From: Balneolaceae bacterium
GTDB taxonomy: Bacteria > Bacteroidota > Rhodothermia > Balneolales > Balneolaceae
Direction: 5' to 3'
DNA length: 32,000 bases
Assembly: GCA_040222185.1 (NCBI GenBank)
Contig: JAVKDP010000003.1
Span: forward strand, 34,428 to 66,427
Below the pieces are notes generated by a model. The model ran no database searches, had not been told where the DNA came from, and saw only the letters and a program-made list of their open reading frames with translations. Below, one piece after another: positions 1,640 to 16,571 of the stretch. Within the stretch, counting starts at the first letter, position 1. Each line of letters starts with the position of its first letter. The translations under genes and the position numbers were made by a program.

Positions 1640-1643
1640 AGAA

Positions 1644-3686
1644 TTAGTTATCGATGCTTAAATCCAGATCATCTCTAATTTGATTCCACCTGTAGTTGTC
1701 ATTTCCATCTCCATAGAATACATATGGTGTTATAAAAATGACCAACTCAGACTTTATTATGCTCGTGCTTTTGTTTCTGAACAACCTGCCGAGTAACGGG
1801 ATATTTCCAAGTATAGGAACTTTGTTGATGTTCTCGGTTTCACTTTCTTGTATCAGTCCCCCGAGTATAATAGTTTCTCCGTCTTTCAGTCTGACGGTTG
1901 AGTCTAAAACCCGGCTGTTTATAGTAGGAGGAACCTCTGCTGTTAAGGTTCCAACCGGTGTGTTAAACTCCGGATGAACTTCTACTGTTACATCTCCTGA
2001 AGCGCTTACCCATGGAGTAATTTCCAGGAGCACGTTTGCTTCAATGCTTTCGAATCGCTGAGATTCCTGTGTAATCACATTATTTGGAGATTGAAGTGGG
2101 GTGGTAGACGTAAATATATAATACTGGGTCGTTCCGATTTCTATACTTGCAGTATGCCCGTTGAGGGTTGATATCTGCGGGCGCGATTTTACTGTTACCA
2201 ATCCTTCCTGGTCTAATGCCTGGATTCTGAAAATGAAATCACTCGGTAACCGACCCAGGTTTTTAACTCCAAAGAGATTTCCACCTGGCGCAAATGTTGC
2301 ATTAATATCAGCTCCACCTCCTTGCACACTTAATCCACCACTTTGATTCTCTCCCTGTCCAAACAGAACTGTAAACGGATTAAAGAATCCGCTATCGGGT
2401 TTAACTCCTGATGATAAAGACAATCCCAGTTGATACATATCCGAGGTGTTCACATCCACCACAAGAGCTTCTATCATAATCTGGGGTGTTGGGTAATCGA
2501 TCTCAGAAATAAAGTTTTCCAGCTCTACAATTACGTCATTTGTGCCAATAACCATTAATCCGTTTTGCTCTTTAATAACCTGCACTGTGGCATTCTGAAG
2601 TACACTTTCGGGAATTAGATCAATCACTACATCAGATCGGATATGTTTGAGCCGGATGAGTTTATTTGACGCAATTCCACTGGTGCTTTTATCTCCAATG
2701 ATGTACATCTCACCTTCTTTTCGGAAAGTAAATGAAGTCCCTCTGAATACATATGACAGAGCCTGTTCAATAGTAAGCCCTGATGCTTTGGCGGTTATAG
2801 AATTGGTCGGTAACCCATAGGTTATCATATTTATCTCACTTTGGTACCCAATCTCACGGATTACATCAGTAGCATTGGCGTCTACAACATCCATATCCAC
2901 CAGGCCATCGTCATCCACATTGATCCAAAAATTTGTTCCTGTACTTTCACCCTGTTCATTGGTAAAGCCAATCCGGTCAATGATATATACACCGTCTTTT
3001 TCACGTAACGAAAATCCGTTATTGGAAAGAATAATAGATAATGCTGATTCCAGTTCTACATCTTGCAGATACCCTGAAATTGATCCTCGTACTCCGTTTC
3101 GTGGAATCACATTTCTCCCGGTTTTCTGAGAGATCAAGCGAGCGAAATCGGTTACTTCGATTTCCTTTACATCCATTGAGAGCCTATTATCGTCAAAATC
3201 TATGATGGGTTCGATTGTTTCGGGTACTGGTTCCTGCTCCACATATTCCCTGATTCTGAAAATCTGCCCTGTCTGGGTTGTAGAAAGGTTGTACTCCATA
3301 GATATAAATATGAGTACCTCAATTATCGTGATATCTGAAAACCTGAGTGTGAGCTGCCTGTTCAGCCTGTTTTCTACCAAAAGATTTATATCATATTCAC
3401 GGCCTAATGCCCTTAAGAAGTCCCTGGAATCAATATTGCTAACGCTGATATCGGTCTCGATTTTTTTGAACACATTATCGGGAAGGTTATCCAGGTCAAC
3501 CCGCACTTTGTTCGTGTCAATAATAGTGGAGAGGTATTGTATATAATCCAGCCTTTCCTGTATGGTAGTACTATCGGCTTCGTTGGCCGTCTCTTGCGCG
3601 TAAGCATTGGTATAGACCAATGCGAAAATAAAAATCAGGAGTAATTGTAGGGTACGATTCATAAAACAGGATGGATGTAGACTCAA
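1644..3686 (-). CDS. Secretin (GspD/PilQ family outer-membrane channel)
   Basis: 680 aa with a classical secretin C-terminal domain: VKSRPQISTLNGHTASIEIG, LLEITPWVSASGDVTVEVHPEFN, KDGETIILGGLI...VPILGNIPLLGRLFRNKSTSIIKSELVIFITPYV. Three tandem N-terminal modules of about 59 aa are present (residues 87-145, 178-236, 272-330). The likely true start is the ATG at 3662 (MNRTLQLLLIFIFALVYTNAYAQ is a cleaner signal peptide). Confidence 0.9.
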   Translation of the reverse strand: MSLHPSCFMNRTLQLLLIFIFALVYTNAYAQETANEADSTTIQERLDYIQYLSTIIDTNKVRVDLDNLPDNVFKKIETDISVSNIDSRDFLRALGREYDINLLVENRLNRQLTLRFSDITIIEVLIFISMEYNLSTTQTGQIFRIREYVEQEPVPETIEPIIDFDDNRLSMDVKEIEVTDFARLISQKTGRNVIPRNGVRGSISGYLQDVELESALSIILSNNGFSLREKDGVYIIDRIGFTNEQGESTGTNFWINVDDDGLVDMDVVDANATDVIREIGYQSEINMITYGLPTNSITAKASGLTIEQALSYVFRGTSFTFRKEGEMYIIGDKSTSGIASNKLIRLKHIRSDVVIDLIPESVLQNATVQVIKEQNGLMVIGTNDVIVELENFISEIDYPTPQIMIEALVVDVNTSDMYQLGLSLSSGVKPDSGFFNPFTVLFGQGENQSGGLSVQGGGADINATFAPGGNLFGVKNLGRLPSDFIFRIQALDQEGLVTVKSRPQISTLNGHTASIEIGTTQYYIFTSTTPLQSPNNVITQESQRFESIEANVLLEITPWVSASGDVTVEVHPEFNTPVGTLTAEVPPTINSRVLDSTVRLKDGETIILGGLIQESETENINKVPILGNIPLLGRLFRNKSTSIIKSELVIFITPYVFYGDGNDNYRWNQIRDDLDLSIDN

Positions 3687-3809
3687 TTAAACAGAATAGA
3701 AAATTTTTGTTGAACTTACCTATATCTTTTTTGTGAAAGTCTGTTCCCTTAATCGCGCTTTTTCTTTCTCGCTTGTGATAGGTTTGGGGAGTACTTCCTA
3801 AAAGACTTA

Positions 3810-4979
3810 CTAAAGCACCGTCTCTCTGTAAATCTCTTCTACGGTAGTTAATCCGGCTTTGATTTTTTGAATTCCGACTTCTCTTAACGTAATCATTCCG
3901 TTCTTCCTGGCCTGCTCTTTGAGTTCGCCGGAATTTATGTTTTCCATAATTCTGGAAGCCAAGATCTCATCAAATACGAGCAGTTCAATCAATGCCGTTC
4001 TCCCTTTGTACCCGGTTCCATTGCAAGTGCTACAACCTTCTCCTTTTTTGTAAGAAAATTGTTCTCCATTCAGCCCTAAATCTTTAACCATAATCGGGTC
4101 TGGAGTGTATTCTACCTGGCAATCGGGACAGATTTTACGGACCAGGCGCTGAGCCATGATCAACCTAACAGAGGAAGCCACTAAAAATGGTTCCACACCC
4201 ATATCTGTTAATCTTGAGACTGCAGATGCTGCATCATTTGTGTGTAGCGTTGAAAATACCAGGTGACCTGTTAAGGCAGACCGGATTGCAATTTCTGCCG
4301 TTTCTTTATCCCTGATCTCACCAACCATAATGATATTCGGATCCTGCCGTAAAATGGATCGAAGTACATTGGCAAAGGTCAGGTCAATTTCTTCATGAAC
4401 CTGGGTTTGGTTTATCCCTTCCAGGTTATATTCTATCGGATCCTCAATAGTAGTTATGTTTACTTCTTCGGAATTCAGTTCATTTAATGCCGCGTAAAGC
4501 GAAGTAGTTTTACCACTCCCGGTTGGGCCAGTTACCAGGATCATCCCATAAGGATTGCTGATCCCTTTTCGAAAGTTGTTAAGTATTTTTCCATCAAAAC
4601 CCAGGGCTTCCAGGTTCAGGTCTAAATGACTCTTATCCAGGATTCTCATTACTACTTTTTCTCCATAATGAGTGGGAAGAATTGAAACCCTTAAATCAAT
4701 ATCGGAGCCTTTTTTTGAGCGTACTTTAATCCTTCCATCCTGGGGCCTGCGTTTTTCTGCTATATCCAGGTTCGACATAATTTTAACCCTGGAAACCAAC
4801 GCATCTTTCTGGCTTATTGGAAGTTGTGCTACTTCCTGGAGTACTCCGTCAAGCCTGTACCTCAAGCGGTAACTTTTTTCGAAAGGTTCAATGTGTATAT
4901 CACTCACTCCAATCTCAATAGCTTTTTGGATGATACTCTCAACCTGTTTGATGATAGAGCCGGTTAGCTGGATATTCAC
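3810..4979 (-). CDS. GspE/PilB-family type II/IV secretion ATPase, short form lacking an N1 domain
   Basis: 389 aa with a GTG start (cac at 4977..4979). Motifs: Walker A GPTGSGKTT, Asp box TIEDPIEY, Walker B IIMVGEIRD, His box FSTLHTND. The tetracysteine motif CPDC...CSTC is typical of GspE/PilB and not of PilT. The protein starts directly at the VSDIHIEP (N2) region. Confidence 0.9.
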   Translation of the reverse strand: MNIQLTGSIIKQVESIIQKAIEIGVSDIHIEPFEKSYRLRYRLDGVLQEVAQLPISQKDALVSRVKIMSNLDIAEKRRPQDGRIKVRSKKGSDIDLRVSILPTHYGEKVVMRILDKSHLDLNLEALGFDGKILNNFRKGISNPYGMILVTGPTGSGKTTSLYAALNELNSEEVNITTIEDPIEYNLEGINQTQVHEEIDLTFANVLRSILRQDPNIIMVGEIRDKETAEIAIRSALTGHLVFSTLHTNDAASAVSRLTDMGVEPFLVASSVRLIMAQRLVRKICPDCQVEYTPDPIMVKDLGLNGEQFSYKKGEGCSTCNGTGYKGRTALIELLVFDEILASRIMENINSGELKEQARKNGMITLREVGIQKIKAGLTTVEEIYRETVL

Positions 4980-6045: not shown

Positions 6046-6082
6046 CTAAAGACACATCAAATCTAACGTGTCTTTAGTTTTA
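6046..6082. terminator. Bidirectional intrinsic terminator between convergent genes
   Basis: Perfect 10-bp stem: ctaaagacac (6046..6055) pairs with gtgtctttag (6068..6077), with a 12-nt loop, followed by tttta on the plus strand. Confidence 0.5.
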
Positions 6083-7216
6083 CTCATCAGCGCTTCTTCG
6101 AAATAACTGTATTACATCTGAAGAGCTTAAATCTTCTAAGCCTAAACTCTCTAACTGTGCATAAAACTCAAGAGGAACTCCCTCATTGTATAAAGCCCTC
6201 GCTCCATTTGAAGACATCTCATCAAAGATATCAGAATCTCCCATAGCTCTGATGTATTCTATCGGAATACCTTCATTGTACAACGCTACCGCTCCATTGC
6301 CAGACATCTCATCAAAAAGGTCTGCATCTGCCAGATTTTGAATGTACTCAACAGTAACTCCCTGGTTATATATTGCTAACATTCCATTGGAATTCATCTC
6401 GTCAAATAGATCAGTTGCTCCCATTCCTTGAATATAGGATATCGGGACTCCGGCATTTTTAATCGCTATGATTCCGTTGGCCGACATCTCATCAAATAAG
6501 TCTGAATCTCCAATGGTTTGAACATACTCGGATGTAATTCCTTCGTTATATACTGAAAGAAGGCCATTGCCAGACATCTCGTCGAACAAATCCGAATCTC
6601 CCATATTCTGAATATAGGATAACGGTACACCTGAGTTGTACAATCCAATTACGCCAGCGGCTGACATTTCGTCGAAAAGGTCTGATTGCCCTAAAGACGA
6701 AACATACTCAACAGGAACACCTTCTCTAAAAATAGATAGTACTCCAGCTGCAGAAAGATCATCAAACAAATCCGAGTTTTCCAGGTTCGATATATATTCA
6801 ATCGAAACACCTTCATTGTACAAGGCTTCAGCGCCGTTTACTGAAATATCTTCTGTTACATCAAACGATTTAAGAGCTGCTACATAATCGAGAAAAGAAC
6901 TCGTAATTGGCGTTACATTTGTTGCCGCATCACTGGCATTTCCTGAGTTTAACTCAATCGGAGTAGCCTCCTCATCAAAGAAACCTTTTACAAAATCAGT
7001 AGCTGAAGAGATTGGGTTCACAAAGTAAAATACTATTACCAGTACCAGAGTCGACCAGGCTATGATATTAGCTTTCGAAGATTTCTTCTCTTTGCCCTCC
7101 AGCGAGTCAATGAAGGATTCATCTTCATTTCCCTTTTCATTTATATACTCATCCAGGTCAAATTCATCACGAGTATTTTGATTTTCCGAATCCCTAAATC
7201 TGTCTTTTCTATTCAT
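6080..7216 (-). CDS. Acidic membrane-anchored tandem-repeat protein (about 7 full plus 2 degenerate 30-aa repeats)
   Basis: 378 aa. It has an acidic cytoplasmic N-terminus of about 50 aa, one TM helix (IIAWSTLVLVIVFYFV), and then repeats of consensus IQxMGDSDLFDEMSxNGxxAxYNEGVPxEY. Confidence 0.75.
   Translation of the reverse strand: MNRKDRFRDSENQNTRDEFDLDEYINEKGNEDESFIDSLEGKEKKSSKANIIAWSTLVLVIVFYFVNPISSATDFVKGFFDEEATPIELNSGNASDAATNVTPITSSFLDYVAALKSFDVTEDISVNGAEALYNEGVSIEYISNLENSDLFDDLSAAGVLSIFREGVPVEYVSSLGQSDLFDEMSAAGVIGLYNSGVPLSYIQNMGDSDLFDEMSGNGLLSVYNEGITSEYVQTIGDSDLFDEMSANGIIAIKNAGVPISYIQGMGATDLFDEMNSNGMLAIYNQGVTVEYIQNLADADLFDEMSGNGAVALYNEGIPIEYIRAMGDSDIFDEMSSNGARALYNEGVPLEFYAQLESLGLEDLSSSDVIQLFRRSADE
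6164..6895. repeat. In-frame 90-bp tandem repeat array inside CDS 6080..7216
   Basis: The motif catctcatcaaa / catctcgtcgaa recurs at about 6213, 6303, 6393, 6483, 6573 and 6663 with a strict 90-bp period. This corresponds to protein residues 108-351. Confidence 0.85.
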
Positions 7217-7380: not shown

Positions 7381-8058
7381 TCAGTAGTAAATGCGAACTA
7401 CTATTCGTCGATTTAACGCGCGGTTTTCGATGATATTCCTACCATTGTCATCAATGTGCGGAACTACAGGTTTCGTATCCGCGTAACCGGAAGCTTTTAG
7501 TCGCTCTCCTTCAATCCCTTCCTGCACAAAGTACTTTACTACCCCGGAAGCCCTGGCTACAGAAAGCTCCCAATTGGAAGGAAAAATAGGCGTACTGATT
7601 GGTACATTATCTGTATGACCTTCTACATCTACATTGAATTTATAGAAATCCAGGGCGTTCATCGCCTGGGTCACTTTATCAATGATTTCTTCACCGGTGG
7701 GTAAAAGATTGGCTTCACCGGAGTTATAAAACGAGCTACTGGTAAAAAAGAGCTTTATCCCTTCTCTATCCAGGGTTATATCTACCAGGCCCTGAGTCTT
7801 TTCTACAGCGAGTAATGAATCCAAATCCTGTTTTACTTCTGCAAGAGGTGTCCTAACGTTTTCCTGCTTACTAATCTCTGAACGAAGTCCCTGCTTCATT
7901 TGCTCCCAAAGGTTCAAATCTACTGTAGAAACAGCGATCAGCATTGCAAAGAAAGCGAGAAGAAGCGTGATCATATCACTATAAGTAAGTAACCATTCCT
8001 GGTCCTCTTCGTGCTCCTGATCATCATGCTGATGCCCTATGTAGTTACGGTTCAGCAA
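7381..8058 (-). CDS. motB: MotB-like stator subunit (OmpA-like peptidoglycan-binding C-terminal domain)
   Basis: 225 aa with an apparent TTG start. The N-terminal motif WLLTYSDMITLLLAFFAML matches the MotB TM/plug region and includes the conserved channel Asp (TYSD). The C-terminal OmpA-like signature is SNWELSVARA...NRALNRRIVVRI. Confidence 0.85.
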   Translation of the reverse strand: MLNRNYIGHQHDDQEHEEDQEWLLTYSDMITLLLAFFAMLIAVSTVDLNLWEQMKQGLRSEISKQENVRTPLAEVKQDLDSLLAVEKTQGLVDITLDREGIKLFFTSSSFYNSGEANLLPTGEEIIDKVTQAMNALDFYKFNVDVEGHTDNVPISTPIFPSNWELSVARASGVVKYFVQEGIEGERLKASGYADTKPVVPHIDDNGRNIIENRALNRRIVVRIYY

Positions 8059-8061
8059 AGG

Positions 8062-8910
8062 TTATTCCGAATCTTTAGGATTATTGTTATTGCGGGTTAA
8101 ATAGGTGTTCAATTTATCTTGTATATAGAAAGACGATCTTTTTTCATTGATCATGATGATTCCTTCCAACACAAAATACTCCCGGAATTTATTCATTTGA
8201 GCAGCATTCTTGATCTTTTCAGCCACCGGGTAAAAGATAAACCGGGCAAGTGAAATCCCATATAATGTTGTAATCAAAGCTGCAGCTAGCCCTGGCCCCA
8301 TCCCTGAAGGGTTTTCAAGCTCTCCAAGCATTACGATTAGCCCAAAGAGTGTACCAAACATCCCGAATGATGGCGCTGCACCACCCATAGCTTTTAACAC
8401 ATCTACAACAACCAATTTTCTGAAGTAGTGCTCTTCTACATGATTGGAGCCAAAAACCTGTATATCCTCGTTTGAGTAGTTAGTACTTAACAGAGAGAAT
8501 AGATACCCTGATACATCATTTGAATGTTCTGTCTCTAATTTTGAAAGTGAATTTACTCGGTCTTTTTTGATCTGATCGTTCCACTCTAAAATGGATTCCA
8601 GGTCTTTTTGTAGAGTACGATGGTTTGTTGTAGCCTGACTAAAGAGTAAAAAGATACTTCCGAAAGCTCTGCCCACATACCTCGGCTGATAAGTGATAAA
8701 AACAGCATTTAAAACACCACCCAATACAATAAATAAACTAGGCAAATTTAAAAATCGGTATTCGGAAAGAAAAGGAATTGAATTCATCACAGAGGTTGCC
8801 CCCGTAATTTCCGTAATCCCAAAAACAAGCATGGTTAAACTGACTATAACCCCAAGTATATTCGTAATTGAAAGTCTCATATTAGTTGTTACCCCCTCTA
8901 ATCTCATCAA
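8062..8910 (-). CDS. motA: MotA-like stator subunit (MotA/TolQ/ExbB proton-channel family, 4-TM MotA topology)
   Basis: 282 aa. Two N-terminal TM helices, a cytoplasmic loop of about 80 aa, then TM3 (APSFGMFGTLFGLIVMLG) and TM4 (AAALITTLYGISLARFIFYPVAEKI), each carrying the conserved Pro, and a cytoplasmic tail of about 50 aa. The start is probably the ATG at 8880 (MRLSITNILG...), one nt after the upstream stop, rather than TTG 8910. Confidence 0.85.
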   Translation of the reverse strand: MMRLEGVTTNMRLSITNILGVIVSLTMLVFGITEITGATSVMNSIPFLSEYRFLNLPSLFIVLGGVLNAVFITYQPRYVGRAFGSIFLLFSQATTNHRTLQKDLESILEWNDQIKKDRVNSLSKLETEHSNDVSGYLFSLLSTNYSNEDIQVFGSNHVEEHYFRKLVVVDVLKAMGGAAPSFGMFGTLFGLIVMLGELENPSGMGPGLAAALITTLYGISLARFIFYPVAEKIKNAAQMNKFREYFVLEGIIMINEKRSSFYIQDKLNTYLTRNNNNPKDSE

Positions 8911-9511
8911 TTAAACTTTCCAGCTCTGGTATGCTTGGAACCGGAATGTTTGGATCCAATTGTACTGCCCTGTTCCAGTTAGCCCTTGCGGCAGTTATAT
9001 TTTCCATCATAAAGAATATGGTTCCTTTCAATGCATAAGCATCAGCTGTTTCCTGGATTTCCAGGGTACTATCTACCTGCTCAAGTGCTTCCCTGTATTC
9101 ACCCAGGTAAAATAAATCCTGAGCCTTTCTATAGTTAGTTAATAAGCTTTGAATATCTTTAGCCCTGTTTTTGATCATTGAAGAATCAGCTACTACAATT
9201 GAATCCTTTTCGCTTGGTGCCATTCCTCTTAAATCCAGGTAGAATTGATCTTTATTAGGATCAAGATTAATCTGGATATTCGAACTTTGATTCTTATAGG
9301 TAACTGTAATTTTTTCGGCTTCACCACTTGTAGTACCTGCTTCCTCGGTAGAACCAGCTTCCGATGCTTGTTCAGATGTATTTTCACCAGTATTTGCTAC
9401 AGTATTCGCCTCCTGTAACCCAGCAGTGGATTTACAGCCAGTGATAAATAAAGCCCCAAATAAAAAAACTATTCCTGCTTTTCTAAAAACGTATAACACC
9501 TTGTACACCAT
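8882..9511 (-). CDS. TPR-containing lipoprotein
   Basis: 209 aa with a lipobox (FGALFITGC-KS). A low-complexity T/E/S-rich linker is followed by a C-terminal TPR-like segment (YREALEQVDSTLEIQETADAYALKGTIFFMMENITAARANWNRAVQLDPN). Confidence 0.65.
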   Translation of the reverse strand: MVYKVLYVFRKAGIVFLFGALFITGCKSTAGLQEANTVANTGENTSEQASEAGSTEEAGTTSGEAEKITVTYKNQSSNIQINLDPNKDQFYLDLRGMAPSEKDSIVVADSSMIKNRAKDIQSLLTNYRKAQDLFYLGEYREALEQVDSTLEIQETADAYALKGTIFFMMENITAARANWNRAVQLDPNIPVPSIPELESLIDEIRGGNN

Positions 9512-10568
9512 AACTTGTCCTATTAAATGTTACTTTGTTATTGTTTTCCAGTGTAATCGTCTCTCCTGATAGTGCTATGCTACCATAGACCGCAAGACCA
9601 ATATTCTCACTAAGGTTAAACATCAGCCCGGGGTTAAAAGTGAATATCTGTCCTTTGGGTTTACCAATAGGAATTTGTGCACTCGCTTTGAGAAGCAGCA
9701 TTACCCTTGCCTCATTCAGGTCTTCATTCATTTGGGTAACAGCCTGGTAATAAGAAACTCCAAACTCGAGAAAGTTAATTTCGAAGTCCTGGGCTTCACT
9801 GCTTTTTAAAATGTGGAAACCACCTGAGAGGCCGACATATGAGCTATTTTCAGCATTCAGAGGTTGTCTAAATGTGTAAGAAACCTGGAAATCGATAATC
9901 GTTTTATCTAGAGTACTATCGGTTTCTGCACCTGTTGTATCAACAAGGGTGATACTTTCAGAAGCCCGGCTTTCGGCTCCAAAATTAATCATATGACTTT
10001 TACTTTGAACTATTTCTTCTACTACTTCAAATGGATTAGATACAAAGCTTCGGGTCCAGATTACTTCACGGGATATTGGATTCATCATTCGAACCGAAAT
10101 CACAAGTCCTTCAGGATATCTTCTTTGAACGGTAAGTTCAATAAGTCCCTGAACTCCGTATTTATCTGTAATCGTTGTCAAAAATTCAGGAGAGACATCT
10201 GCAAGAGACCTACCACGGATGTTCAGAATCTGAAGAGTACTGTCGTTCCCCATAATCTTCATTTTATCATTGGGCTCCAGCTCAGGGGGAGATAGAACCG
10301 TGAGGCCGGCATACAAACGCATAGCCGACTCAACCTCAGCCCTGATAAATTCAACTTGCTGTGGAGTAAATCTTAAAGCACTGTAATTAATTTTATATAC
10401 AGCAACCCGCCTGATATTTACAGGAATATCGCTGAGCTCGTCACTCATTTGATTCGTGATCTGCTCCATTAGGTATGGATCACCAGATTTATGATCCTGG
10501 GCAAAAGAAGAAGACGAAATACTTAAACAAACAATGCCAAGTACTACTGATTGAAATATTCTTTTCAT
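9483..10568 (-). CDS. Putative outer-membrane protein (periplasmic N-terminal domain plus C-terminal beta-barrel)
   Basis: 361 aa with a signal peptide (MKRIFQSVVLGIVCLSISSSSFAQ). The C-terminal half has alternating-residue beta-strand patterning and ends in ...YGVQGVIRF, an aromatic C-terminal residue typical of the OMP beta-signal. No named family recognised. Confidence 0.5.
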   Translation of the reverse strand: MKRIFQSVVLGIVCLSISSSSFAQDHKSGDPYLMEQITNQMSDELSDIPVNIRRVAVYKINYSALRFTPQQVEFIRAEVESAMRLYAGLTVLSPPELEPNDKMKIMGNDSTLQILNIRGRSLADVSPEFLTTITDKYGVQGLIELTVQRRYPEGLVISVRMMNPISREVIWTRSFVSNPFEVVEEIVQSKSHMINFGAESRASESITLVDTTGAETDSTLDKTIIDFQVSYTFRQPLNAENSSYVGLSGGFHILKSSEAQDFEINFLEFGVSYYQAVTQMNEDLNEARVMLLLKASAQIPIGKPKGQIFTFNPGLMFNLSENIGLAVYGSIALSGETITLENNNKVTFNRTSYGVQGVIRF

Positions 10569-10569
10569 C

Positions 10570-12405
10570 TTAACCCTCGGACTTCATTTTTCTTCTTACA
10601 GCATACAGAACTGCCTTTTGAGCATCCTCTATATCTTTCTTTGAAGCCTCGGTTGGGTTATCAAGCTCTGAAAGAATTAACTGCTGTTCACGTTTTGGAC
10701 GTACTTTAAGTATTTTTTCACGCACTGCAGCCGGTGCTGTTCTTAAGGCAAGGATTACTGTTTCAGTGAGAATCTCTTCCGTAGCACTTTGAACAAAATC
10801 ATCTTTAACTTTTGGAAGATCATCAAACCCAATAAAGAACTTGCGGATTTTTTTGGCTAGCTCAAGATCCTGCTCAGCAATAGATCTCACATAGTTATCC
10901 TGGTCAGCGAGTGGCATTGTCTCAATTGTTGACAAGATAGAATCTATACCATCAGCGGCTACATACTTCATATCTGAAACTGATAACGCCTTGTTTGAAA
11001 AGTGAGACGCTACTTTCTTATAAACAGAAATCGGGATGTTATTAATCTTACCCATTTTTAGAAGAATCGATATCCTTCTTTGGTCATCCATTTTTTGAAG
11101 AATAATCCCAGCTCTCTCTCCAGCAATCTGAGCTAAAAGAATAGCTACCATTTCATTGGATTCTTCTTTCATTAAATGAAGTAATTGCTGATCGGTTAGC
11201 TGATATACGAAGTCGAATAGATTAGAACCTGAGTCGGGAGAGTCGGTTGAAGATTTTATCTGCTGTATACTTCTTCTAAATGCCCGCGCTTCCTCAATTT
11301 TTTCATCAAGAGGGATAGGATCTGTATTGGCTAAACCAAATTTCAGATTTTCAAATGTATTAGCTTCTAAATGACCTTCAAGTACAGTTAGTAATTTCTC
11401 GTCTACACTGGCGAATCCTCTCACAGCCCGGATAACACCCTGCTCTTCATCTGATGCAATCCATTGTTTAACCATGTCGGCAACAACTTTAGGTGTACTG
11501 ATACAAGTATTGGTGAGATAAGTCTTGTCTTCGTCATACTGAGCCATTGTTTTTGCATCTGGCCCGGAAGGCTCATTATTGGTTGAAGCTAAAGCTCCCT
11601 GGTTAGCCATTAGTGCTTCCATACCTGGAGTAAACGGAGGAATACTTTCTTCACTTTTTGAAGGCTTCTTAAGTAATGCATAAAGCAGAGCTATTAAGAA
11701 AAGAACTGCTAAACCTACAATTACATACATCAGCTGTTTAGGGTCATTCCAATCAATCCCCAGAAAAGTATTTTTTTCTGCTTCTGCAGGTGTATTAGGT
11801 TGGGTTCCGATCCGCTCAACTGCATCATCATTACCTGATGGATCATTTTTGGCTGCATTTTGATCAATGGCTCTGGCATTTCGGGGGAAAACTTTTTTCT
11901 CAACCGTTACAACATCTCCCCTGAACCTATCAGCATTAGCTATCAGAGTAGCTGCTTCTTCAACAAATTCTAAATCTTCATCACTGTATGAAGTATCTAC
12001 CAGTACTTTGATATTAAGCCTGGTTAATCGGAAACGAGTATCAAAACCAGAAGCTCTTAAGCTGTCTCTTCCTGTTTCTGATGCACCTCTTAAATTTGGT
12101 GGAACAAATGGAAGCCCGGGTAAATTCTCGATTCTAACAGGATCTTCGGCTTCAATTACTTCATAATCTTTAGCAACCAGCACCCTTTCAAGAGTTGCTT
12201 TTACATCAACAATAAAGGTTCCGGCCTTATAATAATCCGATAATGAATTATCTAGCACAACTTCATAGTATTGCTCATACTTAGCAGCTTCTTCCTGGAC
12301 ATCAGCCGAAACAGACTGACCCGGTAGCGTCTGTGCCTGTACAAAGGATACTGCAAAAATCACGATTAGCCATGTTAGTGGCCCCCAATTTTTTTTCCCA
12401 ACCAT
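10570..12405 (-). CDS. Membrane-anchored FliG-like protein with a FliF/YscJ-like periplasmic segment (natural FliF-fragment/FliG-type fusion)
   Basis: 611 aa. N-terminal signal/anchor (LTWLIVIFAVSFVQA), a periplasmic region of about 200 aa ending LTRLNIKVLVDTSYSDEDLEFVEEAATLIANADRFRGDVVTVEKKVF (compare the FliF tail of the form RLSVAVvVd...GfdxxRGDxvxV), and a TM helix at residues 225-245. The cytoplasmic residues from about 397 to 611 align by eye to the FliG middle and C domains: ESNEMVAILLAQIAGERAGIILQKM, DLELAKKIRKFFIGFDDL, ILALRTAPAAVREKILKVRPKREQQLILSELD...DIEDAQKAVLYAVRRK. Confidence 0.7.
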   Translation of the reverse strand: MVGKKNWGPLTWLIVIFAVSFVQAQTLPGQSVSADVQEEAAKYEQYYEVVLDNSLSDYYKAGTFIVDVKATLERVLVAKDYEVIEAEDPVRIENLPGLPFVPPNLRGASETGRDSLRASGFDTRFRLTRLNIKVLVDTSYSDEDLEFVEEAATLIANADRFRGDVVTVEKKVFPRNARAIDQNAAKNDPSGNDDAVERIGTQPNTPAEAEKNTFLGIDWNDPKQLMYVIVGLAVLFLIALLYALLKKPSKSEESIPPFTPGMEALMANQGALASTNNEPSGPDAKTMAQYDEDKTYLTNTCISTPKVVADMVKQWIASDEEQGVIRAVRGFASVDEKLLTVLEGHLEANTFENLKFGLANTDPIPLDEKIEEARAFRRSIQQIKSSTDSPDSGSNLFDFVYQLTDQQLLHLMKEESNEMVAILLAQIAGERAGIILQKMDDQRRISILLKMGKINNIPISVYKKVASHFSNKALSVSDMKYVAADGIDSILSTIETMPLADQDNYVRSIAEQDLELAKKIRKFFIGFDDLPKVKDDFVQSATEEILTETVILALRTAPAAVREKILKVRPKREQQLILSELDNPTEASKKDIEDAQKAVLYAVRRKMKSEG

Positions 12406-12716: not shown

Positions 12717-12980
12717 ATGATTGAATACCAACAAATACTTACGCTCATTATCATTTCGAGCTTGTATCTCTTTCTTTTATGGCTCTTAAGACATTTTAAG
12801 TTACAAGTGTCTAAGTACTGGATCATTTGTATAACTCTGATTGTATTCGGTGAACTGTTTTCAGTGCTGGAACGCATATCAATCCCTTTGCTCTTTAACA
12901 TACTCGAGCATTTATCATTTACTTTGGCATGCTTGTCTTTTTTTGTAGCTGTAGCAACAATCGAGGAGAGTCATGAATAG
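12717..12980 (+). CDS. Small 3-TM membrane protein, possibly the detached N-terminal part of the downstream sensor kinase
   Basis: 87 aa with three hydrophobic helices. It overlaps the kinase start by 8 nt (ATGAATAG) in a different frame. It shares an xLExxS motif (SVLERIS, NILEHLS) with the kinase membrane region (NFLEHTS). Confidence 0.4.
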   Translation: MIEYQQILTLIIISSLYLFLLWLLRHFKLQVSKYWIICITLIVFGELFSVLERISIPLLFNILEHLSFTLACLSFFVAVATIEESHE

Positions 12981-14295
12981 TGTAATCCCCATTCTAAATA
13001 TAATCTCCGCTCTTTTTGCAATATCCGGGATGGTTTTGGTTTTAGCTAAACGTGTTAACCCCTCAAACCTGGATACCCGTTTTATAATTGCCGGAGGATG
13101 TGTTCTTCTCCTTATCGGAACTTTAAATTTTTTAGAACATACCAGCCTGGCAGTAAGCCCGGATATAGGCGAAAATTTTCTGATACTTCTATTCTTTCCC
13201 ATTGGGATTTTTGCCGTTTACTCCTCAGCTGTAAGGCAAGAGTTTAACCGGCGGCGATTGGAAGAAACGAAGGCTGCAGAAGTATTAAAAGAATCTGAAG
13301 AGAAGTATAAGCTACTATTTACCAAAAGCCCGTTACCAAAATCTATTTTTGACCCAAAGACCTTGAAGTTTATCGAGGCTAATGACGCCGCCCTCGAACT
13401 TTACGGATACACAAGAGACGATATTGATAAAGTAACCCTCCTGGATATACACCCTCCGGAAGAGATTGATCGTTTGGTTGAAAATAATGCCAAATATCTC
13501 GGGAAAGCTGCTCCAACAAGTGAGTGGAGAAATCTCAAGAAAAATGGTGACGTTATTATAGTGGAAGTTTCAACCTCTATCATCCATTACCTGGATGAGG
13601 AGTATCGTTTAGCTGTAATCAAAGATATTACTGCCCAACGCAAAGCAGAAGAGAAAGTATTCTCTGCATTCGTAGAAGGTGAAAATAAGGAAAGAGATCG
13701 GCTAGCAAGGGAATTGCATGACGGCATAGGGCAATACCTGGCAGCTACGAGTATGAATCTTGATGCAATGAAAAAGGAAATTCAAAAACTGGGTAAAAGA
13801 GAGCAGTCACTTTTTGAAAACGGCCTCTCTTATTTGAAACAGGCTATGACCGAAACACGAAACCTGTCTCATAATCTGATGCCAAGTATAATAGAAGACT
13901 ATGGACTTGATGTGGCATTGAAAAACCTGACTGATGATTTTGGTAAAAGCTCAGGCATTGATTGCCAGTTTTATTGTAATCTGAAGCATACCAAGCTTAA
14001 AAAAAAGCAAGAATTTAATATTTATCGCATTGTGCAAGAATGCCTCAATAATATTTCTAAACATTCTAAGGCTACCAAAGTTAATGTGCAGCTTATTAAG
14101 GATGAGTTTGACTTGATACTTACAATTGAGGATAATGGCGTTGGTATTGATACTTCGCATCCATCTTACGTTTCTGGTTTAGGACTTAATACTATCAAGA
14201 CCAGAACTTTTATCATGGGTGGAGTGTTTGATATTGAAACCAGTAAGAACAAAGGAACCCTGATTTCAATAAGCGTTCCAATTACTACTAGCTGA
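12973..14295 (+). CDS. Sensor histidine kinase, NarX/DegS type (HisKA_3) with membrane region and PAS domain
   Basis: 440 aa. Three N-terminal TM helices, a PAS segment (FTKSPLPKSIFD...AVIKDITAQRKAEE), an H-box (RLARELHDGIGQYL, HisKA_3 style), and an ATPase N-box and G-box (QECLNNISKHSKA...DNGVGI...GLGLNTI). Confidence 0.9.
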   Translation: MNSVIPILNIISALFAISGMVLVLAKRVNPSNLDTRFIIAGGCVLLLIGTLNFLEHTSLAVSPDIGENFLILLFFPIGIFAVYSSAVRQEFNRRRLEETKAAEVLKESEEKYKLLFTKSPLPKSIFDPKTLKFIEANDAALELYGYTRDDIDKVTLLDIHPPEEIDRLVENNAKYLGKAAPTSEWRNLKKNGDVIIVEVSTSIIHYLDEEYRLAVIKDITAQRKAEEKVFSAFVEGENKERDRLARELHDGIGQYLAATSMNLDAMKKEIQKLGKREQSLFENGLSYLKQAMTETRNLSHNLMPSIIEDYGLDVALKNLTDDFGKSSGIDCQFYCNLKHTKLKKKQEFNIYRIVQECLNNISKHSKATKVNVQLIKDEFDLILTIEDNGVGIDTSHPSYVSGLGLNTIKTRTFIMGGVFDIETSKNKGTLISISVPITTS

Positions 14296-14304
14296 CGGGG
14301 ATCT

Positions 14305-14958
14305 ATGGATTCTATACACCTATTGATTGTTGACGATCATAAAATTGTGCGGGATGGAATAAAATCCTTACTGGATAGTGATGCAGATATTGTAATAGCA
14401 GGGGAAGCTTCAAATGGAAATGAAGCCATTGAACAAATCCATCGCTCTTCTCACAAGCCTGACCTGGTTATCATGGATATTAACATGCCGGAGCTAGACG
14501 GAATTGAAGCTACCAGGTTGATCAAAAAGAAATACCCTGCGATAAGAATACTGGCTTTAACAATGATTAATGAACAGCATCATATTCGGAAAATGATTGA
14601 AGTTGGTGCTTCCGGATATATTTTGAAAAGTGCCAGCAAAGAGGAACTGGTAAGTGCCATTCAAAAAATACATGCTGGTAGTCATTATTTTAGCCCTGAG
14701 GCTGCCCAATCAATTTTACAAGAATTCGTGAGCCCGGAACTTTCGAAAAAAGCCGGCGATATTAATGTTCAAATCACTGACCGCGAAAAAGATGTTCTTC
14801 GGTTAATCGTTGATGAATACACTAACCAGGAAATTGCAAATGAGCTTTTTATAAGTGTGCGTACGGTTGATGCTCATCGTAGAAACTTGCTACAAAAAAT
14901 CGGAGCTAAAAATACTGCCGGTCTCGTAAAGTTTGCTATCGAAAACGATGTTTTTTAA
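14305..14958 (+). CDS. Response regulator, NarL/FixJ family (REC plus LuxR-type HTH)
   Basis: 217 aa. REC motifs LLIVDDH and DLVIMDINMPELDG. The C-terminal sequence LTDREKDVLRLIVDEYTNQEIANELFISVRTVDAHRRNLLQKIG is a GerE/LuxR HTH. Confidence 0.95.
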   Translation: MDSIHLLIVDDHKIVRDGIKSLLDSDADIVIAGEASNGNEAIEQIHRSSHKPDLVIMDINMPELDGIEATRLIKKKYPAIRILALTMINEQHHIRKMIEVGASGYILKSASKEELVSAIQKIHAGSHYFSPEAAQSILQEFVSPELSKKAGDINVQITDREKDVLRLIVDEYTNQEIANELFISVRTVDAHRRNLLQKIGAKNTAGLVKFAIENDVF

Positions 14959-15018
14959 CTCATTAGCAAACTCTTATCTTTTAGCCTCCTCAAAATCATT
15001 AGCATAATTTTAGATAAA

Positions 15019-15034
15019 TAGGTGATTTCACCTA
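15019..15034. promoter_or_regulatory. Candidate operator: perfect 7-2-7 inverted repeat TAGGTGA-tt-TCACCTA
   Basis: Seen directly in the 161-bp spacer between the NarL-type regulator and the PAS kinase. ATTTAGG half-site-like copies lie at 15042..15048 and 15073..15079. Confidence 0.3.
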
Positions 15035-15119
15035 ATTTGAAATTTAGGCTTTTCACGTCTTATATCGGCTTTATTTAGGTCGTAATTTTGGTTTGTAATA
15101 ACAGAGTAATGTTACAACC

Positions 15120-16571
15120 ATGCCAAAAAATCAAAATTTTTATTCCTCTATTAAGTTAGATTCTTTAACCGAACAGATCTTGTCGGCATTGCCTAACCAG
15201 GTGGCTATAGTTAATGAGTATGGAGAAGTAGTAGCCTTTAATCGCAAATGGAATTCTTTATCAACTAAGGTAACAGAAGGATGGGCTTTTCCTGAACTTG
15301 GAAAAAATATACTCGAAGAGCTTCAAATTCCCTTAAGCCGAAATAATGAGTACGCACTCCGGTTAATTGTGGCCTATAAAACTGTATTAAGTGGGGAGAA
15401 GAAGAAGCTAAAGGTTCACTTCCCGGTAAACATAAGTTCGGATGAAGAACAGTGGTTTTCTCTCAGTATTTCGATGCTCGAAGATAAAAAACACTTTTTA
15501 CTAGTAAACCAAAAAGTAGCTGGTAGTAAGCGATTCACTTCAAAACAGCCTACCGATCGAAATAGCGAACACTTCTTCCGAAAACTATTCGACTCAAGCC
15601 CTAATGCTATCGCCATATTAGATAAAAAGGGACAGGTAATCGATATTAATAAAAGCTTCCACAAAATCTTTGGCTATAGTATCGACGAATTGAGCAAAAA
15701 CAGGCTCCCCGATTTTATAGTTAGTTCTGAACAGAAGAAAAACTCGGATGAATTACTTAAACAGGTTTTTCAAGGTGCTGACTTTAGAATCGAAACGGAG
15801 AGGGTTAGTAAGAATGGGAAGAGTATTCCTGTAATACTAAGTTTATATCCTATAAGAGAAGGTGATGAGATTACTTCGGTGTTCTGTATTTATGTGGATA
15901 TGACGGAGCAAACAAAGTCAAAGAAAATCATTGAGCACCAGTTACGGGAAAAAGAAATTCTTATCCAGGAAATTCATCACAGGGTAAAAAATAACCTGGC
16001 TATTATTTCCGGTTTAATCGAACTGGAAAATATTCATACTCAAAATGAACGTCTTAAAACCCAGTTAACTGTAACACAATCCAGGATTCATTCCATAGCC
16101 AAAATCCATGAACTACTGTATAGTAATCAAAGCTTTTCGAATATAGATTTCCAGGAGTATGTGAAGGACTTAACTGTTTCTTTTTCACGTTCTTCGATGT
16201 TTAATTTTACGGTAACTGCAAACAACCCTGTTTTTCTGAATGTGAACCAGGCCGTACCCTGTGGAATGTTGCTCCATGAAATCACAACTCAGATTGTTTC
16301 AAAAGCGAAATCAAAAGGGATTAATCCCCGAAACGTCCAGTTCGATTTAAGAGACAGAGAAGGAGAACTCTCAATTGATATTTGTGAAGAGGGAACACAA
16401 CGAGTTTTTGATGTTAATGAGGTTCAAAAAGAAACTCTTGAATCCGAATTAATAACAGTACTCCTTAAGCAGCTGGGAGGCAGTATCAACATCGCCAAAG
16501 ACTCAAGGCGTTGTACAACAGTATCATTTAAAAAGAGAGAAAAGAAAGGTGCTCACAGTTCACTTTTGTAG
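15120..16571 (+). CDS. Cytoplasmic PAS-domain histidine kinase, HisKA_2 type
   Basis: 483 aa with no TM helix. PAS region: FRKLFDSSPNAIAILDKKGQVIDINKSFHKIFGYSIDEL...YVDMTEQ. The H-box EIHHRVKNNLAIISGLIELE is the HisKA_2/HWE-like signature. Confidence 0.85.
   Translation: MPKNQNFYSSIKLDSLTEQILSALPNQVAIVNEYGEVVAFNRKWNSLSTKVTEGWAFPELGKNILEELQIPLSRNNEYALRLIVAYKTVLSGEKKKLKVHFPVNISSDEEQWFSLSISMLEDKKHFLLVNQKVAGSKRFTSKQPTDRNSEHFFRKLFDSSPNAIAILDKKGQVIDINKSFHKIFGYSIDELSKNRLPDFIVSSEQKKNSDELLKQVFQGADFRIETERVSKNGKSIPVILSLYPIREGDEITSVFCIYVDMTEQTKSKKIIEHQLREKEILIQEIHHRVKNNLAIISGLIELENIHTQNERLKTQLTVTQSRIHSIAKIHELLYSNQSFSNIDFQEYVKDLTVSFSRSSMFNFTVTANNPVFLNVNQAVPCGMLLHEITTQIVSKAKSKGINPRNVQFDLRDREGELSIDICEEGTQRVFDVNEVQKETLESELITVLLKQLGGSINIAKDSRRCTTVSFKKREKKGAHSSLL

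What the first reader, a model, noticed from the sequence alone, without database searches (positions are those of the whole stretch)
10570..12405. Single polypeptide joining a FliF-tail-like periplasmic ring motif to FliG middle and C-terminal domains
The architecture read from the translation is: signal/anchor, about 200 aa periplasmic, TM helix (residues 225-245), a cytoplasmic linker of about 150 aa, then the FliG-like region (about 397-611). The periplasmic end (RLNIKVLVD...ADRFRGDVVTVEKKVF) resembles the last ring-building strand and the RGD-containing tail that precede TM2 of FliF. In flagella, FliF and FliG are separate proteins in 1:1 contact, so this looks like a natural fusion with a drastically shortened FliF part. 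In a by-eye alignment to the E. coli FliG torque helix (SQRAADILRDDLANRGPVRL), the Arg281 equivalent (KRE) and one acidic position (SEL, equivalent to Asp289) are retained. The Asp288 and Arg297 equivalents are Ser. This suggests a modified stator interface.
Basis: partly seen in the sequence, partly recalled or inferred. Interest (0 to 1): 0.8.

Follow-up and report, generated by a model that had tools for sequence, protein, structure and literature searches.

The report
Natural FliF–FliG fusion rotor with stator
A single gene fuses a shortened flagellar membrane-ring protein (FliF) to the torque-receiving rotor protein (FliG), and it sits in a conserved five-gene operon with a flagellar-type ion-driven stator in bacteria that include a non-motile species, so it looks like a minimal flagellum-type motor used for something other than swimming.

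Summary
ORF 12405..10570 (-) encodes 611 aa: signal/anchor, about 150-aa periplasmic domain, TM helix (222-248), cytoplasmic FliG.

A profile of 124 diverse relatives matches Salmonella FliF 404-560 (its C-terminus, E 1.3e-7). It then continues directly into FliG from residue 6 to 321 (E 5e-33). A confident AlphaFold model (pLDDT 85) matches both FliF RBM3/collar S-ring structures and full-length FliG. The protein is therefore FliF without RBM1/RBM2, joined end to end with FliG. The supposed "150-aa linker" is mostly the FliF FliG-binding tail plus a FliG N domain.

More than 120 clusters (50% identity) share this architecture. In Balneolaceae and Fibrobacteria the gene heads the same operon: fusion, unknown exported protein, TPR lipoprotein, MotA, MotB. 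All five genes are under strong purifying selection.

The Arg281 equivalent is R/K in 122 of 124 members. The FliM-binding EHPQR motif is degenerate. The MotA R90 and FliG D289 equivalents are present together in Balneolaceae and absent together in Fibrobacteria.

Best reading: a switchless rotor-stator module with no export apparatus and an unknown envelope output. I found no description of it in the literature.

The parts
10570..12405 (-). FliF-FliG fusion gene (611 aa), first gene of the operon
   Evidence: ORF. Pfam FliG_M and FliG_C. Family profile against PDB hits FliF and FliG. AlphaFold model with pLDDT 85.4. Foldseek hits FliG and FliF RBM3/collar.
12334..12405 (-). aa 1-24: N-terminal signal peptide or membrane anchor (possible VQA|Q cleavage site)
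   Evidence: Hydrophobic segment 9-28. The same feature is found in most of the 124 family representatives. Whether it is cleaved or acts as an anchor was not resolved.
11881..12315 (-). aa 31-175: periplasmic FliF RBM3-like domain (alpha-beta-beta-alpha-beta) with a long hairpin, a conserved LPGLP tip loop (95-99) and an RGD motif (162-164)
   Evidence: Secondary structure H34-55, E64-83, E116-136, H142-155, E165-170. Foldseek 8z5v_A, 6sd1_A and 8z4g_1 at E 1.5e-4 to 4e-4, TM 0.51-0.55. D164 is invariant in 124/124, G163 in 116, P96 and G97 in 121. Sequence match to E. coli FliF 397-429, with 0 of 3000 shuffles as high.
11662..11742 (-). aa 222-248: transmembrane helix, equivalent to FliF TM2
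   Evidence: Hydropathy. Helix 222-245. It lies within the collinear alignment to FliF 396-552.
11443..11556 (-). aa 284-321: equivalent of the FliF C-terminal cytoplasmic tail (FliG-binding helices), ending at ...KQWIASDEE
   Evidence: 14.4 bits at E. coli FliF 534-552, its C-terminus, with 0 of 3000 shuffles as high. W315 conserved in 99/124 and P305 in 94/124. pLDDT above 90.
11218..11442 (-). aa 322-396: FliG N-domain equivalent, about 26 residues shorter than in E. coli before the M domain
   Evidence: Profile position 306 aligns to E. coli FliG residue 6, and E. coli residues ~72-97 are an insertion relative to the profile. Full-length FliG structures align over 312-324 columns.
10906..11217 (-). 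aa 397-500: FliG middle domain with a degenerate EHPQR motif (E415 kept; S416, N417, E418, K450)
   Evidence: Pfam FliG_M. Motif columns across the family.
10573..10905 (-). aa 501-611: FliG C-terminal domain with the torque helix (R572, S579, E580, S588)
   Evidence: Pfam FliG_C 71.7 bits. 1qc7 TM 0.83, rmsd 1.9 A. The R281 equivalent is R/K in 122/124.
9483..10568 (-). Second operon gene, 361 aa, exported, no known family. Inferred to be a periplasmic domain followed by a C-terminal outer-membrane beta-barrel.
   Evidence: No Pfam, NCBIfam or PDB sequence hit. Signal-like N-terminus. C-terminal F361 and Y353 conserved in at least 90%. Always the next gene after the fusion in Balneolaceae and Fibrobacteria. 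The barrel is an inference, not a result.
8882..9511 (-). Third gene, 209-aa TPR protein with a lipobox (FITGC)
   Evidence: Pfam TPR_1 33.7 bits. The lipobox is read from the sequence. The position is conserved. TPR proteins recur in divergent operons, and one MotB carries a fused TPR.
8062..8910 (-). MotA/PomA-type stator A subunit (282 aa)
   Evidence: Pfam MotA_ExbB. Full-length matches to solved flagellar MotA and PomA, E 5e-23 to 7e-11. NCBIfam MotP/PomA models match below their cut-offs. P173 and P222 equivalents invariant. R90->K115, E98->S123.
7381..8058 (-). MotB-type stator B subunit (225 aa) with plug and OmpA-like peptidoglycan-binding domain
   Evidence: Pfam MotB_plug 56.7 bits and OmpA 57.9 bits. 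The Asp32 equivalent, D28, is invariant in 54 of 54 aligned sequences (E. coli MotB included).

Best explanation
SHOWN. The 611-aa protein is a collinear, end-to-end fusion of the C-terminal part of FliF with a complete FliG. The FliF part comprises an RBM3 plus collar-like periplasmic domain, the second transmembrane helix and the cytoplasmic FliG-binding tail. FliF's RBM1 and RBM2, the domains that hold the type III export gate in flagella, are absent. The gene heads a five-gene operon (fusion, unknown exported 361-aa protein, TPR lipoprotein, flagellar-type MotA, MotB). The same gene order is kept in Balneolaceae and Fibrobacteria, and all five genes are under strong purifying selection.

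INFERRED. The fusion oligomerises through its RBM3-like domain into an inner-membrane ring. This ring carries a short periplasmic collar and a cytoplasmic FliG ring. MotA5B2-type units are anchored to peptidoglycan by MotB's OmpA-like domain and powered through the invariant Asp. They push on the conserved Arg of the FliG torque helix and turn the ring. With the FliM-binding EHPQR motif degenerate, the motor is probably switchless and unidirectional. With no export gate, rod, hook or filament, its output is not a flagellum. The torque, or a conformational pull, is probably passed through the conserved LPGLP tip of the periplasmic hairpin to the co-encoded exported protein and TPR lipoprotein, for an envelope or outer-membrane task that remains unknown.
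For: Architecture:
- Family profile against PDB gives FliF E 1.3e-7 (profile 134-304 = FliF 404-560) and FliG E 4.7e-33 (profile 306-595 = FliG 6-321).
- The same collinearity holds on E. coli K-12 proteins.
- Two TM-free sub-motifs each beat 3000 shuffles.
- The AlphaFold model has pLDDT 85.4.
- Foldseek hits full-length FliG and about 17 FliF RBM3/collar entries at E<1e-3.

Family:
- 127 clusters at E<1e-30, of which about 122 have the same two-TM architecture.

Operon:
- Same five genes, abutting or overlapping, in most of the 61 genome loci from Balneolaceae and Fibrobacteria; the exceptions are mainly short or truncated contigs.
- Fusion plus MotA plus MotB plus TPR also occur in two divergent operons.

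Selection:
- dS is saturated while dN is 0.10-0.36 for all five genes. The domains evolve slowly and the linkers fast.

Working parts:
- FliG R281 equivalent is R/K in 122/124.
- MotA P173 and P222 and MotB D32 equivalents are invariant.
- The MotA R90 and FliG D289 equivalents are K/R plus E in Balneolaceae and Q plus G in Fibrobacteria. The E98-R281 pair is kept in Fibrobacteria. These pairs are the documented contacts (PMC12505986).

Precedent and context:
- Engineered FliF-FliG fusions assemble rings (PMC6079021 abstract; PMC11481574).
- The operon is present in Gracilimonas tropica DSM 19535 (L028). This species is listed as non-motile (PMC5167729) and as lacking flagellar-assembly genes (PMC9909488).
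Against: - No oligomer was predicted and no ring has been observed.
- Rotation is inferred only from homology.
- The torque interface is reduced. The D288 and R297 equivalents are Ser, and the MotA E98 equivalent is lost in most Balneolaceae.
- The co-variation rests on one split between two clades, so it may reflect a single evolutionary event.
- Some distant members carry an N-terminal periplasmic LysM (peptidoglycan-binding) domain (P0217, P0241). This would tether the supposed rotor and argues against free rotation, at least in those members.
- I could not scan whole genomes for other flagellar genes. Some Balneolaceae (Balneola vulgaris; Aliifodinibius genomes) do have flagella or flagellar genes.
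- The partner protein p361 has no recognisable fold by sequence, and its outer-membrane location is a guess.
Confidence: 0.6

Rival explanations
1. It is the rotor of an ordinary flagellum in which fliF and fliG happen to be fused. The rest of the flagellar genes lie elsewhere in the genome.
For: All recognisable parts are flagellar homologues. Engineered FliF-FliG fusions work or assemble in Salmonella and Vibrio. Balneola vulgaris is flagellated and Aliifodinibius genomes hold many flagellar genes.
Against: - RBM1 and RBM2 of FliF are absent. The periplasmic part is only ~150 structured residues, and all FliF matches start at or after residue ~396-404 by sequence, or are to RBM3/collar by fold.
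- The EHPQR FliM site is degenerate.
- No flagellar gene was found next to the operon in the loci inspected.
- The two extra operon genes are not flagellar.
- The operon is present in non-motile G. tropica, which is reported to lack the flagellar assembly pathway.
Confidence: 0.07
2. It is a decaying remnant of a lost flagellum, with no present function. This follows the 'broken flagellar pathway' reading of Balneolaceae genomes.
For: PMC9909488 interprets incomplete flagellar gene sets in Balneolaceae as gradual loss. Several canonical motifs are degraded: EHPQR, D288, R297 and MotA E98.
Against: - Intact ORFs are kept in more than 120 clusters at 50% identity with the same architecture.
- Gene order is identical in two phyla at 27-33% identity.
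- Synonymous sites are saturated while dN is 0.10-0.36, and constraint is domain-specific.
- Catalytic and channel residues are invariant.
- Two non-flagellar genes are conserved inside the operon.
Confidence: 0.03
3. The ring does not rotate freely. It is a peptidoglycan- or outer-membrane-tethered platform on which MotAB does work, in a Tol-Pal or TonB-like way. Stator rotation against FliG produces a limited pull or conformational change that is passed to the exported partner proteins.
For: LysM domains occur on the periplasmic part of some members. The partner is an exported protein with a probable outer-membrane anchor, alongside a TPR lipoprotein. One MotB is fused to TPR. The charge interface is reduced.
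Against: The stator is of the flagellar MotA/PomA type rather than the ExbB/TolQ type (TolQ model only 17.5 bits against 119 for MotP). The retained RBM3/collar and FliG ring-building parts are those of a rotor. The window's own protein has no LysM domain.
Confidence: 0.25

Closest known systems
Flagellar MS-ring/C-ring pair FliF + FliG (Salmonella, E. coli, Vibrio), and the engineered FliF-FliG full-length fusions
   Same: The RBM3/collar-like periplasmic domain, RGD motif, TM2, C-terminal FliG-binding tail, and FliG N, M and C domains occur in the same order. The key torque-helix Arg is conserved. The partner is a flagellar-type MotAB. A 1:1 covalent FliF-FliG linkage is known to be compatible with ring assembly.
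   Different: The fusion is natural. RBM1 and RBM2 are absent. The collar hairpin is much shorter and carries its own conserved LPGLP tip. The segment joining FliG N and M is ~26 residues shorter. The EHPQR motif is degenerate. The D288 and R297 equivalents are Ser. No flagellar neighbours were found, and two unrelated envelope genes sit inside the operon.
Flagellar stator MotAB / PomAB / MotPS (the 'FIT' clade of PMC12505986)
   Same: The alignment is full-length, including the cytoplasmic torque-generating loop. The two channel prolines, the MotB Asp, the plug and the OmpA-like domain are present.
   Different: Scores fall below every NCBIfam equivalog cut-off (119 against 394). The R90 and E98 equivalents are each kept in only one of the two phyla. 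The stator is used with a rotor that carries no flagellum.
Other ion-driven 5:2 motors with non-flagellar outputs (GldLM/T9SS gliding, ExbBD-TonB, TolQR-TolA-Pal, AglRQS-Glt, ZorAB)
   Same: The idea is the same: an inner-membrane ion motor coupled to periplasmic or outer-membrane partners, including TPR lipoproteins and outer-membrane proteins.
   Different: None of those systems uses FliG or FliF. Here the stator belongs to the flagellar type. No ZorA-like protein was found.
RBM ring builders outside flagella (injectisome SctJ/PrgK, sporulation SpoIIIAG/AH)
   Same: The alpha-beta-beta-alpha-beta ring-building fold is shared. PrgK appears as a weaker fold hit (2y9j_Y, E 0.02).
   Different: The best matches are specifically to FliF RBM3/collar. 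No secretion-system or sporulation components accompany the gene.

Membership tests
FliG (flagellar rotor/switch protein) | FliG C-terminal domain with torque helix | tested here: met
   Pfam PF01706 71.7 bits against cut-off 23.3. Foldseek 1qc7 TM 0.83, rmsd 1.9 A.
FliG (flagellar rotor/switch protein) | FliG middle domain | tested here: met
   Pfam PF14841 34.3 bits against cut-off 25.
FliG (flagellar rotor/switch protein) | FliG N-terminal domain that binds the FliF tail | tested here: met
   The family profile aligns to E. coli and Salmonella FliG from residue 6. Full-length FliG structures align over 312-324 columns. The Pfam FliG_N model itself hits the M-domain region only weakly. The N-M joining segment is ~26 residues shorter.
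FliG (flagellar rotor/switch protein) | EHPQR motif (FliM-binding site) | tested here: not met
   E125->E415 is kept in 97/124. The H, P, Q and R160 equivalents are S, N, E and K here and vary across the family.
FliG (flagellar rotor/switch protein) | Charged ridge R281, D288, D289, R297 (E. coli numbering) | tested here: inconclusive
   R281 is kept (R/K in 122/124). D289 is kept as E in Balneolaceae only. D288 and R297 are Ser.
FliG (flagellar rotor/switch protein) | NCBIfam equivalog score (TIGR00207) | tested here: not met
   85.8 bits against cut-off 226.7.
FliF (MS-ring protein) | RBM3 with beta-collar (S-ring) | tested here: met
   Foldseek matches to RBM3/collar structures at E 1.5e-4 to 1e-3, TM 0.50-0.55. 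Pfam YscJ_FliF_C is below threshold at 13.9-17.3 bits against 23.8. The collar hairpin is much shorter.
FliF (MS-ring protein) | RBM1 and RBM2 (Pfam YscJ_FliF, PF01514) | tested here: not met
   No hit. All sequence matches to FliF begin at residue ~396-420. The periplasmic part has room for one domain only.
FliF (MS-ring protein) | Two membrane segments flanking the periplasmic region | tested here: met
   Hydrophobic segments 9-28 and 221-249, found family-wide. The first may be a cleaved signal peptide.
FliF (MS-ring protein) | C-terminal cytoplasmic FliG-binding tail | tested here: met
   14.4 bits at E. coli FliF 534-552, with 0 of 3000 shuffles as high. W315 conserved in 99/124.
Flagellar stator MotAB/PomAB | MotA four TM helices, cytoplasmic loop, channel prolines; MotB Asp, plug, peptidoglycan-binding domain | tested here: met
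Flagellar stator MotAB/PomAB | NCBIfam equivalog scores | tested here: not met
   Best MotP model 119.1 bits against 394. MotD model 161.6 bits against 283.
Bacterial flagellum (whole system) | Type III export gate, rod, hook, filament and FliM/FliN genes | tested here: inconclusive
   None was found within 10 kb in the loci inspected or in the 32-kb window. Whole genomes could not be searched. The literature reports no flagellar assembly genes in G. tropica.
Zorya anti-phage system | ZorA with a long cytoplasmic tail, plus ZorC/D | tested here: not met
   PADLOC gives only generic ZorB~MotB similarity. There is no ZorA hit.

The most novel reading that the evidence does not exclude
This is a free-standing flagellar-type rotary motor that works without any type III export apparatus, rod, hook, filament or switch. 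It has a FliF(RBM3)-FliG ring rotor and a MotAB stator, and it drives a so far unknown periplasmic or outer-membrane process through two novel partner proteins in non-flagellated Balneolota and Fibrobacterota. A bolder version is that it descends from, or mimics, the rotor-stator core that existed before it was joined to the export apparatus.
Probability: 0.45. Interest if true: 0.9.

Novelty: new variant of a known kind. Interest (0 to 1): 0.8.

Why it matters
Textbook FliF, FliG and MotAB are known only as parts of the flagellum. There, the rotor is built around the type III export gate.

A conserved operon that keeps only the S-ring/collar part of FliF, fuses it to FliG and pairs it with a flagellar-type stator separates the torque-generating core from the export and axial parts. 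This matters for four reasons:

1. It gives a minimal natural system (one rotor gene plus two stator genes) for studying ring assembly and torque generation.
2. It offers a natural experiment on the FliG-MotA charge interface. Two different half-interfaces are kept in two phyla.
3. It raises the possibility of a new envelope function powered by a flagellar-type motor.
4. It bears on the long-running question of how the flagellar motor and the secretion system came together.

It also corrects database annotation. These genes are currently labelled 'FliG C-terminal domain-containing protein', 'flagellar motor switch protein FliG' or 'hypothetical protein'. In genome surveys they could be mistaken for remnants of a lost flagellum.

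Tried and rejected
- First AlphaFold run, with 15 close homologues: the periplasmic part had pLDDT below 50 and was unusable. It was repeated with 124 diverse sequences.
- PDB search with a shallow profile of the periplasmic domain found nothing relevant. The deep profile was needed.
The narrower alignment that worked uses one peptide pattern, so the taxonomic range found (Balneolaceae, Fibrobacteria, one Chitinophagales MAG) is a lower bound.
- The 361-aa partner gave no Pfam, NCBIfam, PADLOC or PDB sequence match, even with a 20-sequence profile.
- I considered a link between the adjacent type IV pilus/T2SS-like genes and the operon and rejected it. They are absent from all 61 related loci.
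- A Zorya-like defence system was rejected.
- P0224 (331 aa) looked like a possible unfused FliG of this family, but it is a contig-end fragment.
- The promoter/terminator scan was uninformative.
- The last protein search, with the deep profile, returned mostly the same Balneolaceae clusters and added no taxonomy.
- Five literature searches found no description of this operon. Absence from the held library does not prove novelty.
Full report
**The sequence and its topology**

The minus-strand ORF 12405..10570 encodes 611 aa. Hydropathy shows two hydrophobic segments, aa 9-28 and 221-249. Lys-Lys follows the second. The N-terminal ~200 residues are therefore periplasmic and the C-terminal ~360 residues cytoplasmic.

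Pfam recognises FliG_M (406-478, 34.3 bits) and FliG_C (508-608, 71.7 bits) above their cut-offs. It also gives a sub-threshold hit of the FliF C-terminal model at 126-170. A single-sequence search of the PDB aligns residues 315-606 to Salmonella FliG 28-315. This was the first sign that the 'linker' is part of FliG.

**Family size and architecture**

Close homologues (56-99% identity, 600-650 aa) come from Balneolaceae and are annotated at best as 'FliG C-terminal domain-containing protein'.

An exhaustive profile search of 1.84 billion cluster representatives gave 2666 hits, 127 of them at E<1e-30. About 122 of the listed representatives are ~560-750 aa and share the same plan: an N-terminal hydrophobic segment, a ~200-aa periplasmic part, one TM helix near residue 200-300 (most near 200-260), and a ~370-aa cytoplasmic part.

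In an alignment of 124 of them (18-64% identity to the query), the only invariant residue is D164 of the RGD motif. P96, G97, G163, F397 and F399 are kept in more than 90%.

**What the protein is**

A profile of that alignment, searched against all PDB sequences, finds the following:

| Target | E-value | Profile positions | Target residues |
|---|---|---|---|
| Full-length Salmonella FliG | 4.7e-33 | 306-595 | 6-321 |
| Salmonella FliF | 1.3e-7 | 134-304 | 404-560 (last residue) |
| Vibrio FliF | 3.9e-7 | 134-303 | 418-580 |
| A third FliF | 4e-6 | 137-302 | 420-568 |

On E. coli K-12 proteins taken from the genome record, the same profile aligns FliF 396-552 (the end) to positions 134-304. 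It aligns FliG 6-321 to positions 306-595. The FliF C-terminus and the FliG N-terminus therefore abut in the fusion.

Two stretches that contain no membrane helix were tested separately against E. coli FliF and 3000 shuffles of it:
- The RBM3 end with the RGD motif scores 13.7 bits at FliF 397-429. The best decoy scores 8.9.
- The tail scores 14.4 bits at FliF 534-552. The best decoy scores 7.2.
- The alignment of the tail reads TPKVVADMVKQWIASDEE against DPRVVALVIRQWINNDHE.

**Predicted structure**

With the deep alignment, AlphaFold gives mean pLDDT 85.4. The periplasmic part folds as helix 34-55, strand 64-83, strand 116-136, helix 142-155, strand 165-170. This is the ring-building alpha-beta-beta-alpha-beta motif with a long hairpin.

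Foldseek against the PDB returns full-length FliG (8wiw_3, E 5e-9, 312 columns). It also returns about 17 FliF RBM3/collar S-ring entries at E 1.5e-4 to 1e-3 with target TM-scores mostly about 0.50-0.55 for the RBM3/collar-only chains and 0.28-0.35 for longer FliF chains. PrgK follows more weakly.

FliF's RBM1 and RBM2 have no counterpart. Only residues 1-4, 187-208 and 249-276 are disordered.

**Operon and distribution**

A scan of one genome per GTDB species found 61 loci:
- Balneolaceae, including the cultured Gracilimonas tropica DSM 19535 and Balneola sp. EhC07.
- About 20 Fibrobacteria/Fibrobacterota MAGs.
- One Chitinophagales MAG.

In both phyla the fusion gene is followed, abutting or overlapping, by the same four genes: an unknown ~360-390-aa exported protein, a TPR protein, MotA and MotB. 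This holds although the fusion proteins share only 27-33% identity.

Two more divergent operons keep the fusion, a TPR protein, MotA and MotB. In one of them MotB carries a C-terminal TPR.

The type IV pilus/T2SS-like genes next to the operon in this window are not conserved neighbours. The flanks are unrelated housekeeping genes, and no flagellar gene was seen in any inspected flank.

Against orthologues at 70-77% protein identity, synonymous sites are saturated while dN is 0.10-0.36 for all five genes. FliG_M is the slowest part (0.055) and the two disordered linkers are the fastest (0.45-1.1). This is not a decaying relic.

**Functional residues**

The stator is of the flagellar type:
- It aligns full-length to solved MotA and PomA structures at E 5e-23 to 7e-11.
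- The best NCBIfam models are MotP, PomA and MotD, though below their equivalog cut-offs.
- The MotA P173 and P222 equivalents and the MotB D32 equivalent (D28) are invariant.

In the FliG part, the mapping to E. coli numbering is as follows:

| E. coli FliG | This protein | Family |
|---|---|---|
| R281 | R572 | R/K in 122/124 |
| D288 | S579 | Ser most common (57/124) |
| D289 | E580 | E in Balneolaceae only |
| R297 | S588 | Ser most common (38/124) |
| K264 | R555 | variable |

The EHPQR FliM-binding motif keeps only its Glu.

Pairing each fusion protein with its neighbouring MotA shows a coordinated pattern. The R90-D288/D289 and E98-R281 contacts are the documented rotor-stator pairs (PMC12505986).
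- Balneolaceae have K/R at the MotA R90 position and E at the FliG D289 position. They have mostly lost the MotA E98 equivalent.
- Fibrobacteria have Q and G at those two positions. They keep E/D at the MotA E98 position opposite the conserved Arg.

Each phylum thus keeps one of the two documented charge pairs. Because this is essentially one contrast between two clades, it is supportive rather than statistical proof.

**Interpretation**

The domain composition is established. The mechanism is inferred.

The RBM3-like domain and the FliG part should build a membrane ring. Peptidoglycan-anchored, ion-driven MotAB units then act on the conserved torque-helix Arg of that ring. The absence of RBM1/RBM2, of the FliM site and of any axial genes indicates a motor with no switch, no export gate and no filament.

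The most conserved periplasmic feature apart from the RGD motif is the LPGLP tip of the hairpin (105-121 of 124). It is the natural candidate for contact with the two co-encoded partners:
- The 361-aa protein has a signal-like N-terminus and a conserved C-terminal aromatic end. It has no detectable family. An outer-membrane barrel is my guess, not a result.
- The TPR protein has a lipobox.

G. tropica carries the operon. It is described as non-motile (PMC5167729) and as lacking flagellar-assembly genes (PMC9909488). This argues for a non-flagellar role, but I could not search whole genomes myself.

**Caveats and rivals**

Ring formation and rotation are unproven. LysM domains on the periplasmic part of some distant members would tether the 'rotor' to the wall. 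They keep alive a Tol/Ton-like 'limited pull' mechanism.

The 'ordinary flagellum' and 'relic' readings are unlikely, for the reasons given above.

Five literature searches found engineered FliF-FliG fusions but no natural operon of this kind.

**Verdict**

The finding is a new variant of the flagellar rotor-stator module: a natural fusion with no export gate and no switch, encoded with novel envelope partners. It is widespread in two phyla of the FCB group and its output is unknown.

Noticed in passing
window 233-4979 (- strand): A type IV pilus/T2SS-like cluster lies just downstream. It comprises a 468-aa protein with a C-terminal PilN domain, a 680-aa secretin (PilQ/GspD-like), and a 389-aa PilB/GspE-type ATPase that aligns only to residues ~180-563 of PilB, so it lacks the usual N-terminal region. 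The cluster is not a conserved neighbour of the operon in any of the 61 related loci.
   Followed up: partly
window 6080-7216 (- strand): A 378-aa protein with one TM segment (47-76) and about seven tandem ~32-aa repeats (consensus GV..EYI.....SDLFDEMS.NG). It has no family match, and no repeat is visible at the DNA level. Homologues sit directly after motB in only three close loci (L005, L010, L011).
   Followed up: partly
P0217 (aa 52-94) and P0241 (aa 69-111), distant family members; locus L069: Some members of the fusion family carry an N-terminal periplasmic LysM (peptidoglycan-binding) domain (28.8 and 21.8 bits, cut-off 20.9). This is hard to reconcile with a freely rotating ring.
   Followed up: partly
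L067 5177-6133: In a divergent operon, MotB has a C-terminal TPR repeat fused to its OmpA-like domain (TPR_2 27.3 bits). This hints that the separate TPR lipoprotein of the window's operon works with the stator. P0259 has a TPR extension at the C-terminus of the fusion protein itself.
   Followed up: no
L055 17997-19580 (-) and L047 8106-9815 (-): A 527-569-aa MORN_2-repeat protein lies within a few kb of the operon in two Fibrobacteria loci, on the opposite strand. This may be coincidence.
   Followed up: no
window 12973-16571 (+ strand): A sensor and regulator set is transcribed divergently from the operon: a 440-aa membrane PAS histidine kinase, a 217-aa LuxR-type response regulator, and a 483-aa PAS histidine kinase. 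A PAS protein also lies upstream in L001. No conserved linkage was established.
   Followed up: no
window 25459-27846 (+ strand): An alpha-amylase-domain protein with a T9SS C-terminal sorting domain. The organism therefore has a type IX secretion system, presumably with its own GldLM motor.
   Followed up: no
PDB chain 9yh6_Oj: A 144-residue chain named 'FliF' matches the family profile over the whole periplasmic domain (profile 34-167, E 2e-4), unlike the enterobacterial FliFs, which match only from the RBM3 end onward. I did not look up which organism or region it represents.
   Followed up: no
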